Shown here piece by piece: positions 13,710 through 52,601 of a stretch of DNA of 53,515 nucleotides. Under the pieces are notes generated by a model. That model was not told where the DNA came from. It saw nothing but the letters and a program-made list of their open reading frames with translations, and did no database searches. The translations under genes were made by a program, and so were the position numbers. Numbering within the stretch: the stretch's first letter is position 1; the number at the start of each line of letters is the position of its first letter. The stretch spans positions 1 to 53,515 of the IMG/VR virus record IMGVR_UViG_3300036828_000767. One strand, 5' to 3'. Origin of the DNA: a virus. Its lineage: Duplodnaviria; Heunggongvirae; Uroviricota; Caudoviricetes.

Positions 13710-14132
13710 ATGACACGTCCCAGCGATTTCGCCGCAGCCCGGATCAGAGCAGTCCGCCGCGCCCGCGGCCTCACCGTCGCGCAGCTCGCCGAACAATGCA
13801 CCCAGCTAGGCGCACCGCAGCTCACGCAAGCAGTCATCGACAACATCGAAACCGGCCGCCGCCACGAAGACGGCACCCGCAGGCGGCACGTCACCGTAGA
13901 CGAACTCCTCGCCCTCGCCCTGGCACTGAACGCACCGCCGCTATACCTGCTCATTCCCCCGGACGACCTCGAAGCGCCCTACCCGATCACCAGCACCGAA
14001 GTATTGCCCCGTTACCAAGTGGCAGCCTGGTTCGCTGGCGTCGGCCCAATCCTGCGGGCCATGTCTTCAGCGGGCGACACCAGGCTGTACTACGCCGAAC
14101 GGCCCCTCACCGAATCCGCGCCAGTCAACTAG
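13710..14132 (+). CDS. XRE-family HTH regulator, antisense within tail operon
   Basis: IRAVRRARGLTVAQLAEQC...VIDNIETGRR...VTVDELLALALALNAPPLYLL; TATGCT-N6-ATG leaderless promoter. Confidence 0.85.
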   Translation: MTRPSDFAAARIRAVRRARGLTVAQLAEQCTQLGAPQLTQAVIDNIETGRRHEDGTRRRHVTVDELLALALALNAPPLYLLIPPDDLEAPYPITSTEVLPRYQVAAWFAGVGPILRAMSSAGDTRLYYAERPLTESAPVN

Positions 14133-40417: not shown

Positions 40418-40582
40418 TTAGCCTACGCGCATCGAATCGCCGTAGCGGTAACGGCCACGCAGCTTGTTTGCCATCTGCCGGTAAGCGTCTGCTTCGGCGG
40501 GTGTCGCCGCGGGGTCATTCGCCTTCGTCAGGAGTTTCCGAATCCTGATCGCCTTCAGGATGTCCGCCCGTGTCAGGACCAT
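40418..40582 (-). CDS. DUF2786-like small protein overlapping terL 3' end
   Basis: MVLTRADILKAIRIRKLLTKANDPAATPAEADAYRQMANKLRGRY; GAGGG RBS; not in ORF track. Confidence 0.65.
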   Translation of the reverse strand: MVLTRADILKAIRIRKLLTKANDPAATPAEADAYRQMANKLRGRYRYGDSMRVG

Positions 40583-42140
40583 CGCTGCCCTCAATCAGGA
40601 AAAACGGCTGCGGCGGCTTCTTGTCGCCGAAGGTGACCAGTCCATGCAACGCCAGGGTAACGCTTACCAAGGGTGTGATGTCGTATCCCGGTGCCGCGTC
40701 CCACGCCCACGCCTGCGCAACCGGCCGGGACCGCGCACCCTCCACCGCACTGTTCAACGGCACCTGCGACGGGTGCCCCAGTTCCTGATTCGTCACCATG
40801 TTGGTGAAATCGCCGCACGACTGTGCATACGCGCGGCTGGTCGTCAAAACCAGGCGGTGCTTCCCGAACGGGGTCGGCTTGTCGTCGGCAAGCGTGATGA
40901 AGCCGCGGTTCCGCAGGTGCTGCTCAAACGCGCCAGCAGGACCCGACGGGTTCAGCACCACCGCCACCGGGTTCCGCCGCTCGGTGATACCCATGAGACG
41001 GTCCAGCACCCAGCCGGTGCCAGGCAGGTGCTCGACCAGTTCCACGTGCGGCTTGCCGTCGTCCCGCCACGTCGCGATGCCGATAGCCGACACCGCACTG
41101 TCCGGCGAGATGTCCACCCCGACCGCCACAACCGGTGCCATACCCGGCCGCGAGCCGCCAAGCTGGCGCCACAGTTGCGGCGACAACGGCGCAGCGCCTT
41201 CTTCGCCTTGGTCCCACCAGCCCATCCGTTCCCGGCAGAACTCCGACACCGGAAGCGCACGCCGTTCCGCAGCGATGTACTCAAACGACAACCCGGTGCC
41301 ATTCGCTCGCCGCTTCCCCAGTGCAGGGTTCGCCATCGCCCAGAAGTCCGGCTTGTCGCAACCGCAGCCGACAGCGGTTTTCACATGGGTGCAACGGTCA
41401 CCTGCGTCACATGCCATCACCGGGTCTGGCGCGCACCATTCAAGCCATGCCAGGGAAGGCTCACCGCCGGCGCGGCCACGGTCGCGGACTTCCCGCAGTA
41501 CCTCCGATTCGACCATCCCAGCCGACGAGCCATAGAACACTTGCGGGTCGGGCTGTGCGGACATCGTCGGCAAGAGCGCACCGAGGTGAGGGGCCTTCAG
41601 GAACATGCCTTCGTCGAGCACGACCTTGTTGCCGGACAGGCCACGGCCGCCGCCCTTGGTCCTGGTGCGGAAAATGGCCCTGGCGCCGGATTTAAGCTCA
41701 ATGGCTTCTTCGCCGTGGTTGCGGACGACCTTTTTGACCTCGCGGCGGAGCAAATCGGAGTTCGTTACCAGGTCCACCATCAGGCGGAACACTTCCATTG
41801 CGGTGCCGAACTCGTGAGCCGAGTAAACGACCAGTCTGGTGTCGAAAATGTACAGCCAGCCATTGATTGCCATGATTTCCAGGGCCGTTTTGATGTTTTG
41901 CCGACCGCAAACGACGCCTATTTCGAATGCCGCGGACCTGCCGTTCTCCTTTTTAGCAAAAATGGCGTCTAGTGCGAGTCGCTGTTCCGGGTCTGGTTCA
42001 AAACCGGCAGCAGTATTCAAATCGGCGACCTCGTCGCCGAAGGTTTTATACACCGGCGGTACCCAAAGGTACGTCGGCTTTACGAGCCCCTGCATGCCGT
42101 AAGCGTACCTAGCCCGCCCAAGGCTCCAAGCTGTGTACAC
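40515..42140 (-). CDS. terL: Terminase large subunit
   Basis: Walker A-like GRQNIKT, YSAHEF, RTRTKGGGRGLSG, VVLDEG (Walker B), ANPALG, VGVDIS nuclease, DITPLVSVTLA; start uncertain. Confidence 0.93.
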   Translation of the reverse strand: MYTAWSLGRARYAYGMQGLVKPTYLWVPPVYKTFGDEVADLNTAAGFEPDPEQRLALDAIFAKKENGRSAAFEIGVVCGRQNIKTALEIMAINGWLYIFDTRLVVYSAHEFGTAMEVFRLMVDLVTNSDLLRREVKKVVRNHGEEAIELKSGARAIFRTRTKGGGRGLSGNKVVLDEGMFLKAPHLGALLPTMSAQPDPQVFYGSSAGMVESEVLREVRDRGRAGGEPSLAWLEWCAPDPVMACDAGDRCTHVKTAVGCGCDKPDFWAMANPALGKRRANGTGLSFEYIAAERRALPVSEFCRERMGWWDQGEEGAAPLSPQLWRQLGGSRPGMAPVVAVGVDISPDSAVSAIGIATWRDDGKPHVELVEHLPGTGWVLDRLMGITERRNPVAVVLNPSGPAGAFEQHLRNRGFITLADDKPTPFGKHRLVLTTSRAYAQSCGDFTNMVTNQELGHPSQVPLNSAVEGARSRPVAQAWAWDAAPGYDITPLVSVTLALHGLVTFGDKKPPQPFFLIEGSDGPDTGGHPEGDQDSETPDEGE

Positions 42141-42323: not shown

Positions 42324-42815
42324 TTATTCGCCCATACTGCGCAGCTTGCGGTCCCGGGCGGCGCGCAGCTCGTCGAGCTTGTTCGGCGGCTCGGTCGGCT
42401 CGGTGCCGAACTTCGCGTCCAGGCCAACCAGGCTGGCCCGGCGTTCACCGACCCGCAGGAGGGTCTGCGACGCTTTGATGGCCAGGCCGGGGTCGCCGCC
42501 CCGGCCGCAGGCGTTGCACCGGCCGCCCTGAGAACCTCGCAGCACGGTTTCCATGATGCGCTGGACCGCGTCGAGGCGTTCCACTTCCAGGGCGATTTGC
42601 ATGGCGCGTTCGCCGTCGCCGGATTCGCGGCGTTCGGTGATCGCGGCGCGGATGTCGCCGGTGATTTGGGAAGCCGCACGGGGTGGGTCGCCGGTTTCTT
42701 CGGCTTCTTGCCGTGCGATCTGCGCGGGGGATAGTCCTGCGGCGCGCAAGGAAAGGACGCGTGCCCTGCGCCGGGAGAGTTCTTCCTCGGTGGGCTTTGG
42801 TTTCCGTGTTGCCAT
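42324..42815 (-). CDS. terS: Terminase small subunit
   Basis: HTH RRRARVLSLRAAGLSPAQIA; LEVERLD; LVGLDA; KLDELRAARDRK; AAGGAGG RBS; upstream of terL. Confidence 0.75.
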   Translation of the reverse strand: MATRKPKPTEEELSRRRARVLSLRAAGLSPAQIARQEAEETGDPPRAASQITGDIRAAITERRESGDGERAMQIALEVERLDAVQRIMETVLRGSQGGRCNACGRGGDPGLAIKASQTLLRVGERRASLVGLDAKFGTEPTEPPNKLDELRAARDRKLRSMGE

Positions 42816-42914
42816 GGTGCCTCCTTCCATGCGGCATATGCAGTGTATGCTGGTGGTATGGTGTGGTATACTTGACTTAGGGAATGAACCAGACCACGCC
42901 CCAAGGAAACCACC

Positions 42915-43208
42915 ATGCTCAGCCCCGAGGACTACCAGCTTTCCATGCGGGTCAGCGCCCGTGCCAAGACCGACACCCCCGACCTGCGGACTCTGCTCGT
43001 CCACCGGCTCCGCCACGCCCCTAAAGCGGTGCTGCGACTATCCAACTCACGTGACATCGCCACCGCGGACATGGAGCATTACGGTGCGTTCTGCGAACCA
43101 TGCGGCCGGTGGGTCAGGCGCCCGGACTGGGCTGACGACTGGGAGTGTCCCTACTGCGGCATCAAATACCGGATCGAGTTCGCGGTGTTCTCCGCCGTGC
43201 ACCCATGA
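42915..43208 (+). CDS. Zn-ribbon hypothetical protein
   Basis: CEPC...CPYC; AAGGA RBS; TATACT upstream at 42867. Confidence 0.65.
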   Translation: MLSPEDYQLSMRVSARAKTDTPDLRTLLVHRLRHAPKAVLRLSNSRDIATADMEHYGAFCEPCGRWVRRPDWADDWECPYCGIKYRIEFAVFSAVHP

Positions 43209-43220
43209 AAGGAGAAACCT

Positions 43221-43775
43221 ATGCCTGAAGACATCAGGACCGCACTGCTGCGCGCCGCCGAGGAAGCCCTCGCAGCGCTTGCCAAGGCTGCGGCAGGTAA
43301 TAGCAACGACGCCGAGATTGAAGCGGGAGTGGATTGCGCCGACGCCCTGATGCGGCTCTGCGAATACGTCGTAACACTCCCCGCCGTTTCCTACAGCGAG
43401 GACGCCGTGTCCCAGGCGCTGAACTGGGCAGCAGACACGGCCCAGGAAATAACCAATCCAGAAGGCGGCGAGTCCAGCGGGTCCATCGAAACCGACGACG
43501 CCATCAACCTCGTAGTAAACCTCACCAGTGAACGCCTCAGGGGCGCCGGCAGCGCAGCGGAAGCGATCGGGTCTGCGTACAGCGAGGATATCCAGCCGTG
43601 GCACGGCTGGAAGGTCGAAGGCTGGCCCGAAGGCGAAGAATGCGCCACCTGCGGCGACGACATCCACCAGGATGACAACGGTGCCTGGCACCACGGCCCC
43701 TCAGCAGAAAACGCCGACCCTGGTCTCGACAGCACCCACACACCCGAGCCTTACGTGGAGGACGTCGGTGACTGA
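43221..43775 (+). CDS. Acidic hypothetical protein
   Basis: 184 aa, AAGGAG RBS. Confidence 0.65.
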   Translation: MPEDIRTALLRAAEEALAALAKAAAGNSNDAEIEAGVDCADALMRLCEYVVTLPAVSYSEDAVSQALNWAADTAQEITNPEGGESSGSIETDDAINLVVNLTSERLRGAGSAAEAIGSAYSEDIQPWHGWKVEGWPEGEECATCGDDIHQDDNGAWHHGPSAENADPGLDSTHTPEPYVEDVGD

Positions 43776-44199
43776 CCTGCCCACCTACGCGGTGACACTG
43801 TGGCAGCCGTGGGCCTGGGCGGTGATCTTCGGCGGGAAGGACATCGAAAACCGGACCAGGCGGATCAGCCCCTGCAACCTGCTCATCCACGCCGGACTGT
43901 CTTACGACGACGACGCCGTGGACATGATCCTGAAACTGACCGGGCGGAAGCGGCTGCCGGAACTGGCGACCCGCGGCGGGTTCATCATCGGACGGGTCAC
44001 CGTCACCGACGCAACATTCGGCACACGGGACACCAGGAGCCCGTGGGCGTTCAAAAAAACGTGGCACTGGCACCTGGAACGCCCCCAGCGTGCTGACCCC
44101 CCCATCGTCTGCCGGGGTTACCCGTCGCTATGGCGCCCCCCTGAGGACTGGGAGAGGTCATTCACCGGGAGGCCGACGAAGCGAAGGCACACATCATGA
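43768..44199 (+). CDS. ASCH-domain protein
   Basis: AVTLWQPWAWAVIFGGKDIENR...LLIHAG...GFIIGRVTVTD...PWAF...HWHLERP...CRGYPSLW. Confidence 0.88.
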   Translation: MTDLPTYAVTLWQPWAWAVIFGGKDIENRTRRISPCNLLIHAGLSYDDDAVDMILKLTGRKRLPELATRGGFIIGRVTVTDATFGTRDTRSPWAFKKTWHWHLERPQRADPPIVCRGYPSLWRPPEDWERSFTGRPTKRRHTS

Positions 44200-44426
44200 T
44201 TAGGCTCATCCACAACCTGACCCACCACCACACGTTCGGCAACAAGGACGGCGTAGGGGAGTTCCTCTCCTGCGGGTGGCGGTTCTTCCCGAACGTGCAT
44301 GTCCTGTACCGTCCCGATCTGGCGGACGCCGGGTGGCATGAGGTCGCAGACATCGACACTATGAGGAGGATGTTGGCCGCGGATGACGCGCTCGCGGCGA
44401 TGGCCATGCTGCGCGCCAGCCAGTGA
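44196..44426 (+). CDS. Hypothetical protein
   Basis: ATGA overlap, 76 aa. Confidence 0.55.
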   Translation: MIRLIHNLTHHHTFGNKDGVGEFLSCGWRFFPNVHVLYRPDLADAGWHEVADIDTMRRMLAADDALAAMAMLRASQ

Positions 44427-44671
44427 GGAGCAACCTGATGGGAACGATCTTCCGCTGTGGCAAGCACCACAAGGAAGCCTTCACCTCGAAACAGCGCGCA
44501 CTGGACCGCCTTGAAGAAGTACTAGCCGAAAAACGAATCGGAACCAGGAAGGCGCCTCACCGGGTGCATTACGACGACGGTTGCGGGTTCTGGCATTTGA
44601 CCAGTGAACACCGGCCCCGTTCAGATGTGGCCGCGGAGGAAAATCTCGCCAAGCAAAGAGGGAGGCTGTAA
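44423..44671 (+). CDS. Hypothetical small Cys/His protein
   Basis: RCGKHHKEAF...RVHYDDGCGFWHLTS pattern seen in small phage proteins. Confidence 0.6.
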   Translation: MRSNLMGTIFRCGKHHKEAFTSKQRALDRLEEVLAEKRIGTRKAPHRVHYDDGCGFWHLTSEHRPRSDVAAEENLAKQRGRL

Positions 44672-44875
44672 ATGTCGAAGAAGCCTGAGGTTGAGTACCT
44701 GACCCCCAGAGAGGTTGCCGCGATGTTCCGCGTGGACCCCAAGACGGTGACCCGGTGGGCGAAGGCTGGGAAGATCGGCTCGATCCGCACGCTGGGTGGC
44801 CACCGGCGGTACGCGGAATCTGAGGTGCGGGCTTTGCTTCAGCGGTACGAACCGCCGCAGAACCCCGAGCAATAG
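44672..44875 (+). CDS. bldC: BldC-like MerR-type winged-helix regulator
   Basis: LTPREVAAMFRVDPKTVTRWAKAGKIGSIRTLGGHRRYAESEVRALL, near-identical to recalled Streptomyces BldC; GGAGG RBS. Confidence 0.9.
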   Translation: MSKKPEVEYLTPREVAAMFRVDPKTVTRWAKAGKIGSIRTLGGHRRYAESEVRALLQRYEPPQNPEQ

Positions 44876-45082
44876 GTGGACATCTACGTTGCCGTAGCGG
44901 ACTATCCCTGCCAGGACCGGTACACACCCAGTGCCATCTTCGGAGCATTCAGCACCGAAGAAAGGGCTCGGGCGGCAGTGGAAGAAGACGCCGGACCGCT
45001 GGAATGGAAAGAAGATAGGGCCACCGACGCTGCCGGCGTTAACTTTACGGTGATGCTGGTCAGCCTGGATGAGGCTATTTGA
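44876..45082 (+). CDS. Hypothetical protein
   Basis: IYVAVAD...IFGAFSTEERARAAV, a common small phage protein pattern. Confidence 0.6.
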   Translation: MDIYVAVADYPCQDRYTPSAIFGAFSTEERARAAVEEDAGPLEWKEDRATDAAGVNFTVMLVSLDEAI

Positions 45083-48646: not shown

Positions 48647-48675
48647 TTGACAGGACCATACGTCGTATGTACAAT
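48647..48675 (+). promoter_or_regulatory. Consensus sigma70/HrdB-type leaderless promoter
   Basis: TTGACA (48647-52)-N17-TACAAT (48670-75)-N6-ATG (48682). Confidence 0.85.
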
Positions 48676-51967: not shown

Positions 51968-52275
51968 TGATTCATTCCTATTACCGGGCGCAGCAGATCG
52001 GCGGGTATTCCGGCCCGGTGGATTGTGTCCTCGCCGACGCGACGTCGTTGCGTCTTGATGCGCAGCTTCACGCTGAGGCGAACGGCAGCGGGATGGTGGG
52101 GTCGCTGACGTTGAAGGGCGGTGTGACGCACCTGTTCCACGGCGGCGACGCGGTGACGTTGCGGCTGATTAACACGCTCCCGGCGGGGATGGAGCGGAAG
52201 TTTGTGGTGTCGGGCGTGGTGACAACATCCCGCGCGGATTTCGCGCAGGTCGGCTCGGTTGGGGGCTGGTTCTGA
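51967..52275 (+). CDS. Hypothetical protein
   Basis: GGAGG upstream; TGATG overlaps at both ends. Confidence 0.55.
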   Translation: MIHSYYRAQQIGGYSGPVDCVLADATSLRLDAQLHAEANGSGMVGSLTLKGGVTHLFHGGDAVTLRLINTLPAGMERKFVVSGVVTTSRADFAQVGSVGGWF

Positions 52276-52601
52276 TGACGTGGCGTAAGTCCAGTTACAG
52301 CGCGTGCAACGGCAACTGCGTAGAGATTGACATGGACTGGTACAAGTCCAGCCGCAGTGCGTACAACGGCTCTTGCCTCGAAGTCGCTTACCGCAAATCC
52401 AGCCGCAGCAACGGCGACAGTTACTGCCTGGAGGCTGCTTACCGCAAATCCAGCCGCAGCAACTTCCACAGTTGCTGCACCGAGGCTGCCCTGCGCAGCG
52501 GGACCGTGCTGGTGCGGGACTCCAAACTGGGCGACGCCTCTCCGGTGCTGGAGTTCAGTCCGGCTGCGTGGGCGGACTTCATCGGTGGGATCAAGGGGTA
52601 G
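52275..52601 (+). CDS. DUF397 (BldB-like) protein with four tandem KSSxS...C motifs
   Basis: WRKSSYS..NGNCVE and three more copies; VLVRDSK...VLEFSPAAWADFI. Confidence 0.9.
   Translation: MTWRKSSYSACNGNCVEIDMDWYKSSRSAYNGSCLEVAYRKSSRSNGDSYCLEAAYRKSSRSNFHSCCTEAALRSGTVLVRDSKLGDASPVLEFSPAAWADFIGGIKG

What the first reader, a model, noticed from the sequence alone, without database searches (positions are those of the whole stretch)
44672..44875. Phage-encoded near-copy of the developmental regulator BldC
Seen: a 47-aa core differing from Streptomyces BldC at about 6 positions (comparison from memory). Known: BldC binds DNA as head-to-tail oligomers and delays sporulation. Inference: the phage may co-polymerise with or replace host BldC to hold the host in vegetative growth, or use it on its own promoters. 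Such high identity exceeds what a generic excisionase-like MerR HTH would show.
Basis: partly seen in the sequence, partly recalled or inferred. Interest (0 to 1): 0.72.

Follow-up and report, generated by a model that had tools for sequence, protein, structure and literature searches.

The report
Phage-borne copy of regulator BldC
A large uncultured soil phage of high-GC Gram-positive bacteria carries a well-kept copy of BldC, the small host DNA-binding protein that holds back sporulation in Streptomyces, so it probably tampers with BldC-controlled host genes during infection; the host is unknown and nothing shows it is Streptomyces.

Summary
The ORF at 44672-44875 (+) encodes 67 aa. Its 47-aa core differs from crystallised Streptomyces BldC at exactly 6 positions. 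It scores 104.8 bits on NCBIfam HTH_BldC (cut-off 77) against 35.6 on the excisionase domain. Its model superposes on BldC chains at 0.5-1.0 A.

All 16 DNA-contact and dimer side chains checked are kept, as are interface residues V23, I40 and T42; one interface residue is changed (L11 to Y).

The gene is the sixth of seven genes behind an extended -10 promoter in a 117.5-kb virus record. That record has no integrase and no ParA. Two related phage contigs keep the gene in the same place, with dN/dS about 0.25.

At least 54 IMG/VR contigs encode BldC-grade proteins, none in the cellular bldC neighbourhood. No isolated phage does, and I found no paper on it. This scan has flagged phage BldC before on other DNA.

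- the nearest cellular cores are Jiangellaceae and Propionibacteriales, 43/47;
- the tree is unresolved;
- no lysogeny genes were found.

The phage genome has no BldC-box arrays, which favours a host target. This is inference only.

The parts
44672..44875 (+). BldC-family gene (67 aa, single MerR-like winged HTH)
   Evidence: PDB 6ama/6amk E 1e-23. NF033787 104.8 bits against cut-off 77. Pfam HTH_17/MerR only. AF2 pLDDT 87 with helix-helix-wing-helix topology. Foldseek top hits are BldC at rmsd 0.5-1.0 A.
44660..44665 (+). Shine-Dalgarno GGGAGG, 6 nt before the ATG. The upstream gene's TAA (44669-44671) abuts the start.
   Evidence: Read directly from the sequence.
42861..42872 (+). Extended -10 promoter GTGTGGTATACT heading the rightward gene block that holds the BldC gene
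   Evidence: One of 14 forward matches (3 for the reversed-pattern control) of a motif family that lies on the + strand ahead of gene blocks. The intergenic region is about 90% conserved in L002 and L003. Function as a promoter is inferred.
42915..44671 (+). Five small upstream genes of the same block: 42915-43208; 43221-43775; a phrog_3193 gene ending at 44199; 44196-44426; 44423-44671 (phrog_3424)
   Evidence: Codon-position GC. PHROG hits. All are conserved in L002 and L003 at 58-85% aa identity. Stop and start codons overlap or abut. No convincing + strand terminator lies between.
44876..45082 (+). Downstream gene (68 aa, weak DUF7336 / phrog_3002 match). Its start abuts the BldC stop.
   Evidence: (22.7 bits, below the 25-bit cut-off). 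Conserved in L002.
42324..42815 (-). 163-aa gene directly upstream of terL, a probable small terminase. It occupies the slot that a TerS reading of the BldC gene would need.
   Evidence: Position next to terL at 40515-42140, which matches phrog_9 at 1.6e-58. There is no Pfam hit and only a phrog_645 hit, so its identity as TerS is inferred from position.

Best explanation
The gene is a BldC captured from an actinobacterial host and kept by a lineage of large phages with no detectable integration or partition genes.

How it most likely works:
1. It is transcribed by host RNA polymerase from an extended -10 promoter, as the sixth of seven small genes in the rightward arm. Expression is therefore probably early or middle.
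2. The protein has every residue that BldC uses to read an AT-rich minor groove plus a C-G pair, and to stack head-to-tail on 9-bp direct repeats.
3. It therefore most likely binds the host's BldC operators, alone or in mixed filaments with host BldC. It raises or fixes the BldC signal regardless of the host's own control.
4. In a sporulating host this would keep developmental genes repressed and hold the cell in the growth state that supports phage replication.

Shown: family membership, fold, residue conservation, phage context and purifying selection.
Inferred: expression timing, DNA target, co-assembly with host BldC, and the benefit to the phage.
For: - Family and fold.
- Kept residues: E16, F21, R22, D24, K26, T27, T29, R30, W31, K33, K36, L43, G44, H46, R47, R48 and interface residues V23, I40, T42. 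Their roles are given in PMC5859096. All are invariant in 80 of 80 cellular orthologues.
- Phage context: two syntenic relatives carry the gene. dN/dS is 0.22-0.27. WIN+L002+L003 form a clade (SH-aLRT 94) nested among cellular BldCs.
- Age of capture: the best cellular match is only about 82% nucleotide identity, so this is an old, maintained capture.
- No own-DNA target: no phased BldC-type boxes were found in the 117.5-kb genome.
- No integrase.
- A general habit: 54 of 58 viral proteins reach about 77 bits or more on NF033787. None of the 57 viral loci shares flanking genes with the 80 cellular bldC loci.
- Rationale from the literature: BldC represses whi genes and delays development (PMC6428758). 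Streptomyces development contains phage spread, and developmental genes are repressed early in infection (PMC10117723). Phages are known to borrow WhiB and Lsr2 (PMC8612146).
- Other host-derived regulators: this phage also carries a WhiB and a DUF397/BldB-like gene.
Against: - The host is unknown. BldC also occurs in actinobacteria that are not known to sporulate, and its role there is unknown.
- No host operator could be examined.
- BldC sites are degenerate and read largely by DNA shape (PMC5859096). The absence of consensus arrays therefore does not exclude binding to phage DNA.
- Interface residue L11, which is L in 80 of 80 cellular copies, is Y in this phage lineage. Mixed filaments might therefore behave differently.
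- Expression timing is inferred from a promoter motif only.
Confidence: 0.45

Rival explanations
1. It is the phage's own regulator or architectural protein. It binds direct repeats on phage DNA to time phage genes or to coat or compact the genome, as the MerR-like Gp36 does in mycobacteriophage D29.
For: D29 Gp36 is a small MerR-like monomer that binds direct repeats and affects phage gene expression (PMC12266134). Earlier notes of this scan report BldC-box arrays in other BldC-encoding phages (not checked here). A conserved run of four units of about 10 bp with a GTAT core lies at 42833-42872 in the divergent terS/early region.
Against: There are no chains of two or more phased A[AT]TT-N4-C sites (expected 0.45) and no phased TGTCC in 117.5 kb. 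TRF finds no 9-11-bp arrays of that kind. The GTAT units overlap the extended -10 promoter motif, and the other 12 promoter copies lack upstream repeats. Gp36 resembles BldC in structure only and binds GC-rich repeats.
Confidence: 0.25
2. It is an anti-BldC. The phage copy joins host BldC filaments but, because of its altered interface residue (L11Y) and diverged tails, caps or distorts them. This would de-repress or misregulate BldC targets rather than reinforce them.
For: L11 packs against F21/V23/W31 of the neighbouring protomer (PMC5859096). It is L in 80 of 80 cellular copies but Y in all three phages of this lineage. A15R, S/T38G and R50A are also absent or rare in cells. Both tails diverge from the conserved cellular tails.
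Against: Tyr is still hydrophobic. All other interface residues and the E16-R22 pair are kept. No structural or binding data exist. De-repressing development would seem to work against the phage (PMC10117723).
Confidence: 0.1
3. It is a recombination directionality factor (excisionase) working with an integrase.
For: TIGR01764 'excise' is over its cut-off (35.6 against 28.8). phrog_66 is the best PHROG hit. BldC and Xis share fold and filament habit (PMC5859096). In 9 of the 13 other BldC-carrying viral records that hold a tyrosine integrase, the gene lies within about 2-6 kb of it (coordinates).
Against: No tyrosine or serine recombinase is present in this 117.5-kb record. Only 4 of 20 near-complete BldC-carrying viral records have a tyrosine integrase. 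The BldC score is far above the excise score. Xis is only rank 16 by fold.
Confidence: 0.04
4. It is a DNA-recognition subunit for packaging (TerS-like or gpNu1-like wHTH), or a functionless passenger gene.
For: phrog_57 'terminase small subunit' matches at 3.5e-6. The gpNu1 DNA-binding domain appears among the fold matches at rank 40. The gene lies 2.5 kb from terL.
Against: It is only 67 aa with no oligomerisation domain. It is on the opposite strand from terL. A separate 163-aa gene sits directly upstream of terL. Purifying selection and conserved position in three phages argue against a passenger.
Confidence: 0.04

Closest known systems
BldC of Streptomyces coelicolor / S. venezuelae (SCO4091; PDB 6AMA, 6AMK; NCBIfam NF033787; PMC5859096, PMC6428758)
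   Same: Same size, 67 against 68 aa, and a single MerR-like winged HTH. The core is 41/47 identical. All named DNA-contact residues and 10 of 11 interface residues are identical. The model superposes at 0.5-1.0 A.
   Different: It is encoded in a phage operon, not at the chromosomal bldC locus. L11Y, A15R, T38G and R50A are changes absent or rare in the sampled cellular copies. The N- and C-terminal tails are diverged. The host, and hence any link to sporulation, is unknown.
Phage-encoded WhiB and Lsr2 of actinobacteriophages (Sharma et al. 2021, PMC8612146)
   Same: These are host global regulators captured by actinophages, with phage sequences nested within bacterial clades and apparently multiple acquisitions. 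This phage also has a WhiB.
   Different: It is a different protein family. That survey lists 'MerR' domains as common in actinophages but does not mention BldC at all (0 occurrences). No isolated phage in INPHARED gave a match above 50% identity to this query. The one tested, Microbacterium phage Noelani gp24, scores 64 bits on NF033787, below the 77-bit cut-off.
Mycobacteriophage D29 Gp36 (PMC12266134) and Pukovnik Xis (PDB 4J2N)
   Same: They are small monomeric MerR-like wHTH proteins of actinophages that assemble cooperatively on direct repeats.
   Different: They resemble BldC in structure only. Gp36 binds GC-rich GCGGC repeats. Xis works with an integrase, which this phage lacks. By fold, Xis matches at E 1.7e-2 against 3e-7 for BldC.

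Membership tests
BldC family (NCBIfam NF033787 HTH_BldC) | Score over the curated cut-off of the family model | tested here: met
   104.8 bits against a cut-off of 77, covering profile positions 2-49 of 49.
BldC family | Consists only of one MerR-like winged HTH (about 68 aa), with no coiled-coil dimerisation or effector domain | tested here: met
   67 aa. Only HTH_17/MerR/MerR_1 match over residues 9-58. The AF2 model shows H12-19, H23-31, a wing and H49-58.
BldC family | Fold matches solved BldC better than other MerR-like proteins | tested here: met
   Foldseek ranks 1-7 are 6ama/6amk chains, with TM (target) 0.88-0.92 and rmsd 0.5-1.0 A. The next is RacA at E 2e-3.
BldC family | DNA-contact residues K26, T27, T29, R30, W31, K33, K36, H46, R47, R48 (PMC5859096) | tested here: met
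   All are identical at offset -2.
BldC family | Head-to-tail interface: F21, V23, W31 against I40, T42, L43, G44, plus the E16-R22 pair | tested here: met
   All are identical.
BldC family | Interface residue L11, invariant in the sampled cellular orthologues | tested here: not met
   It is Y9 in the window, L002 and L003. Cellular copies are L in 80 of 80. This is a conservative hydrophobic change of unknown effect.
BldC family | Cooperative head-to-tail binding to AT-rich 9-bp direct repeats (AATT-N4-C) | not testable with these tools
   It needs EMSA or fluorescence polarisation, or a co-crystal. Only the residues could be checked.
Cellular bldC orthologue (chromosomal locus) | Lies in the conserved cellular bldC gene neighbourhood | tested here: not met
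   The neighbours are phage genes. None of the 57 viral loci shares flanking ORFs with the 80 cellular loci.
Excisionase / RDF (TIGR01764; Xis) | Partner integrase in the same element | tested here: not met
   PF00589 and PF00239 find nothing in the 117.5-kb record, which is 93% complete.
Excisionase / RDF (TIGR01764; Xis) | Domain model over its cut-off | tested here: met
   35.6 bits against 28.8. This is a generic domain-level model. The other two BldC-like HTH proteins tested here also pass it, so it does not discriminate.
Small terminase subunit | wHTH plus an oligomerisation domain, encoded next to terL on the same strand | tested here: not met
   67 aa with an HTH only, on the opposite strand, 2.5 kb from terL. 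Another 163-aa gene occupies the slot upstream of terL.

The most novel reading that the evidence does not exclude
Capturing BldC is a widespread, undescribed strategy of uncultured soil actinophages: at least 54 IMG/VR genomes carry it, mostly without a tyrosine integrase. The phage copy enters host BldC filaments. In this lineage it does so through a retuned interface (L11Y). It thereby takes over the timing of the host's BldC regulon, which in sporulating hosts blocks the developmental escape from infection. That would make BldC a third class of phage-borne actinobacterial master regulator beside WhiB and Lsr2.
Probability: 0.35. Interest if true: 0.7.

Novelty: new member of a known kind. 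Interest (0 to 1): 0.5.

Why it matters
BldC is a key brake on Streptomyces development, and its role in other actinobacteria is unknown. Development is also a recognised layer of antiphage containment (PMC10117723). A phage-made BldC would be a direct molecular link between infection and developmental timing.

It is easy to test: a 67-aa protein, known operators, known mutants and solved structures. The phage copies also form a natural mutational series at the DNA-binding and interface residues (L11Y here; K36R and L43P elsewhere). That series could show what sets BldC filament assembly.

I found no paper describing phage-encoded BldC in the searchable library.

Tried and rejected
- **BldC operators on the phage genome.** I searched for phased AATT-N4-C, A[AT]TT-N4-C and looser sites at 9-11 bp, and for TGTCC / TGTCCGA phasing. 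Nothing exceeded Markov-simulated controls. TRF found no such arrays.
- **The 10-bp GTAT units at 42833-42872.** They are conserved in relatives, but they overlap the extended -10 promoter motif and are unique to this promoter. I do not claim them as an operator.
- **Naming the donor or host from the tree.** There are 68 usable columns and 69 of 100 inner forks are unresolved. Nucleotide identity to any sampled cellular bldC is at most about 82%. No tRNA is present in the window. The host stays 'an actinobacterium'.
- **Host contamination of provirus calls.** Rejected: no viral locus shares flanking ORFs with cellular bldC loci.
- **TerS identity of the 163-aa gene.** It has no Pfam hit and only phrog_645, so it is left as 'probable', from position.
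- **Lysogeny markers.** No integrases and no ParA were found. There is only a weak XRE-type HTH at 13743-13862.
- **Not run.** Serine integrases in the other viral records; the last seven viral loci in the integrase census; a full HMM census of IMG/VR.

Full report
**1. Observation**

The window holds an ORF at 44672-44875 (+) of 67 aa. It has an ATG start, a GGGAGG box 6 nt upstream, and the stop codon of the preceding gene abuts its start. Codon-position GC is 0.63/0.47/0.82, the pattern of real genes in this 64% GC genome.

phmmer against all PDB chains returns only BldC as a strong match: 6ama at E 1.1e-23 and 6amk at E 5.1e-23. In the printed alignment the 47-aa core LTP...RALL differs from 6ama at six positions.

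**2. What the DNA is**

The window is the first 53.5 kb of a 117,515-base IMG/VR virus record, linear and 93% complete by CheckV.

- Terminase large subunit (40515-42140), portal and a capsid-protease fusion lie on the - strand. They resemble genes of Rhodococcus and Mycobacterium phages.
- From 42.9 kb onward nearly all genes are on the + strand.
- The BldC-like gene is the sixth of seven small, tightly packed genes (42915-45082).
- That block sits behind a conserved intergenic region which ends in GTGTGGTATACT (42861-72).
- This motif is one of 14 forward copies of an extended -10 type signal. The copies precede gene blocks on the + strand only, against 3 for the reversed-pattern control.
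- The neighbours are typical phage genes of unknown function: phrog_3193, phrog_3424 and a weak DUF7336/phrog_3002 match. They are followed on the other strand by an ATPase-GNAT protein (phrog_11143) and an HNH endonuclease.

**3. Family membership**

- NCBIfam HTH_BldC (NF033787) scores 104.8 bits against a curated cut-off of 77.
- The generic 'excise' domain scores 35.6.
- Pfam sees only HTH_17/MerR.
- An AlphaFold2 model (pLDDT 87) has the helix-helix-wing-helix order of BldC.
- In Foldseek, ranks 1-7 are BldC chains (rmsd 0.5-1.0 A, TM 0.88-0.92). RacA follows at E 2e-3, Pukovnik Xis is rank 16 and the lambda gpNu1 DNA-binding domain is rank 40.

**4. Functional residues**

Schumacher et al. 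(PMC5859096) name the residues BldC uses:

- *Phosphate and base contacts:* K26, T27, T29, R30, W31, K33, K36.
- *Wing in the AT-rich minor groove:* H46, R47, R48.
- *Head-to-tail interface:* F21, V23, W31 against L11, I40, T42, L43, G44, plus the E16-R22 pair.
- *Mutations that reduce or abolish binding:* R30A, H46E, G44E, E16R.

The phage protein keeps every one of these at offset -2, except L11, which is Y. In 80 cellular orthologues all these positions, L11 included, are invariant.

The phage lineage also has A15R, L37I, S/T38G and R50A. These are absent or rare in cells. Both of its tails are diverged.

**5. Relatives**

*Same phage lineage.*
- Two IMG/VR contigs (L002, L003) are the same kind of phage. 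They share terL at 86% aa identity and the same order of small genes.
- Their BldC-like gene is 75-79% identical overall and 85-89% in the core.
- Pairwise dN/dS is 0.22-0.27.
- The three copies form a clade (SH-aLRT 94) and share Y9 and the KIG motif. This points to one capture followed by vertical descent.

*Other viral contigs.*
- A pattern scan of IMG/VR found 57 viral loci with BldC-like genes.
- 54 of 58 proteins, the window's included, reach about 77 bits or more on NF033787.
- None of the 57 loci shares any flanking ORF with 80 cellular bldC loci, so they are not host DNA swept into provirus calls.
- Only L002 and L003 share synteny with the window.

*The tree.*
- Viral rows are scattered among cellular ones and sit on longer branches.
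- With 68 columns most forks are unresolved, and strongly supported branches force only two changes of label.

*Nearest cellular copies.*
- The window's core is 43/47 identical to Jiangellaceae, a Propionibacteriales MAG and Actinopolymorpha, against 41/47 to Streptomyces.
- Nucleotide identity to any sampled cellular gene is at most about 82%.
- The donor and the host therefore cannot be named, and 'Streptomyces' is not supported.
- BldC-family genes occur widely in Actinomycetota, including Nocardioidaceae, Cellulomonas and Nanopelagicaceae.

**6. Rivals**

*Excisionase.*
- The record has no tyrosine or serine recombinase and no ParA. It has only this one HTH_17 gene.
- Across 50 other BldC-carrying viral records, 13 have a tyrosine integrase. 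Among the 20 records at least 90% complete, 4 do.
- In 9 of those 13 the BldC-like gene lies within about 2-6 kb of the integrase (coordinates). An RDF-like or att-proximal use cannot be excluded for that subset, but it does not apply here.

*Packaging.*
- The protein is too short and on the wrong strand.
- A 163-aa gene occupies the slot upstream of terL.

*Own-genome regulator.*
- D29 Gp36 is a precedent, and earlier scan notes report BldC-box arrays in other phages.
- In this genome I found no phased AATT-N4-C, A[AT]TT-N4-C or TGTCC sites beyond simulation, and no tandem arrays of that kind.
- A conserved run of four units of about 10 bp with a GTAT core sits at 42833-42872. It overlaps the promoter motif and is not repeated at the other promoters.
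- BldC sites are degenerate, so this is weak negative evidence.

**7. Most likely mechanism**

The phage makes its own BldC from a host-type promoter. With an intact DNA-reading surface and a nearly intact stacking surface, the protein binds the host's BldC operators, alone or mixed with host BldC. It holds the BldC regulon in the state that suits phage growth.

In sporulating hosts that state is the vegetative one:
- BldC represses whi genes and delays development (PMC6428758).
- Development limits phage spread, and developmental genes are repressed early in infection (PMC10117723).

The phage also carries a WhiB (108206-108406, behind another copy of the promoter motif) and a DUF397/BldB-family gene (52275-52601). 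Borrowing host regulators fits its habits.

I give this reading 0.45. The others: own-genome regulator 0.25, dominant-negative 0.10, RDF 0.04, packaging or passenger 0.04. The rest is unassigned.

**8. Novelty**

- Phage capture of host global regulators is known for WhiB and Lsr2. That survey lists 'MerR' domains as common in actinophages but never mentions BldC (PMC8612146).
- Three full-text searches found no paper on phage-encoded BldC.
- Among 50,697 deposited phage records, the only match above 50% identity is an unverified human-faecal scaffold (MT836007), which scores 104.5 bits on NF033787. All matches in isolated phages are at 50% identity or below. The one tested, Microbacterium phage Noelani gp24, scores 64 bits, below the cut-off.
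- This scan has flagged phage BldC before on other DNA.

I class it as a new member of a known kind: a true BldC, in the known category of phage-borne host regulators.

Noticed in passing
L006:5001-5438 and L007:5001-5438 (IMG/VR 3300001403_000017 and 3300025634_000001): A BldC core is fused to a C-terminal extension of about 80 aa (146 aa in all) in a 105.7-kb phage with direct terminal repeats. Pfam sees only the HTH, so the extension is unassigned. L019, L020, L043 and L046 also give long ORFs (141-181 aa), but their starts were not checked.
   Followed up: partly
L014:3555-3707 and L039:5294-5434: Two viral contigs (131 kb and 132 kb) each carry a second, more divergent BldC-like copy (59% and 66% identity to the query) beside the first.
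   Followed up: no
L006, L007, L017, L019, L025, L028, L041, L044, L046: In 9 of the 13 BldC-carrying viral records that have a tyrosine integrase, the BldC-like gene lies within about 2-6 kb of it. In temperate phages some BldC-grade proteins may double as excisionases, or sit as att-proximal accessory genes.
   Followed up: partly
alignment A2 (57 viral BldC-like proteins): Positions invariant in 80 of 80 cellular BldCs vary in the viral copies: K36R in 20, L43P in 14, R22 replaced in 16. L43 is the core of the head-to-tail interface, so a subset of phage copies may not stack in the BldC way.
   Followed up: partly
window 42833-42872: Four head-to-tail units of about 10 bp with a GTAT core lie in the divergent region between the probable terS and the rightward genes. 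The last unit is the extended -10 motif. The whole 98-bp gap is about 90% conserved in L002 and L003, more than most of the neighbouring small genes.
   Followed up: partly
window 48647-48675: A near-perfect sigma-70 type promoter (TTGACA, 17 nt, TACAAT; 11 of 12) lies on the + strand. It is of a different type from the 14-copy extended -10 family.
   Followed up: no
window 52275-52601; genome 108043-108406: A DUF397 (BldB-family) gene has three extra partial N-terminal repeats of the domain. A WhiB gene is preceded by GTGTAGTATACT, a copy of the promoter motif. Both are further host-type regulators in the same phage.
   Followed up: partly
L155:2582-2770 (MT836007.1, unverified 'Bacteriophage sp.' from human faeces): It encodes a protein scoring 104.5 bits on HTH_BldC. 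It is the only deposited phage record that matched this query at above 50% identity. The record is unannotated, and its viral nature and host were not checked.
   Followed up: partly
L064 (CAIKNE010000072.1, 2.8-kb contig of a 'Burkholderiales' MAG); L136 ('Chloroflexia' MAG): BldC genes of actinobacterial type appear in bins assigned to other phyla. This is probably misbinning.
   Followed up: no
window 13710-14132: A lone + strand gene sits among - strand virion genes, with a weak XRE-type HTH match (24.1 bits when summed). It is the only repressor-like candidate seen in a genome without an integrase.
   Followed up: no
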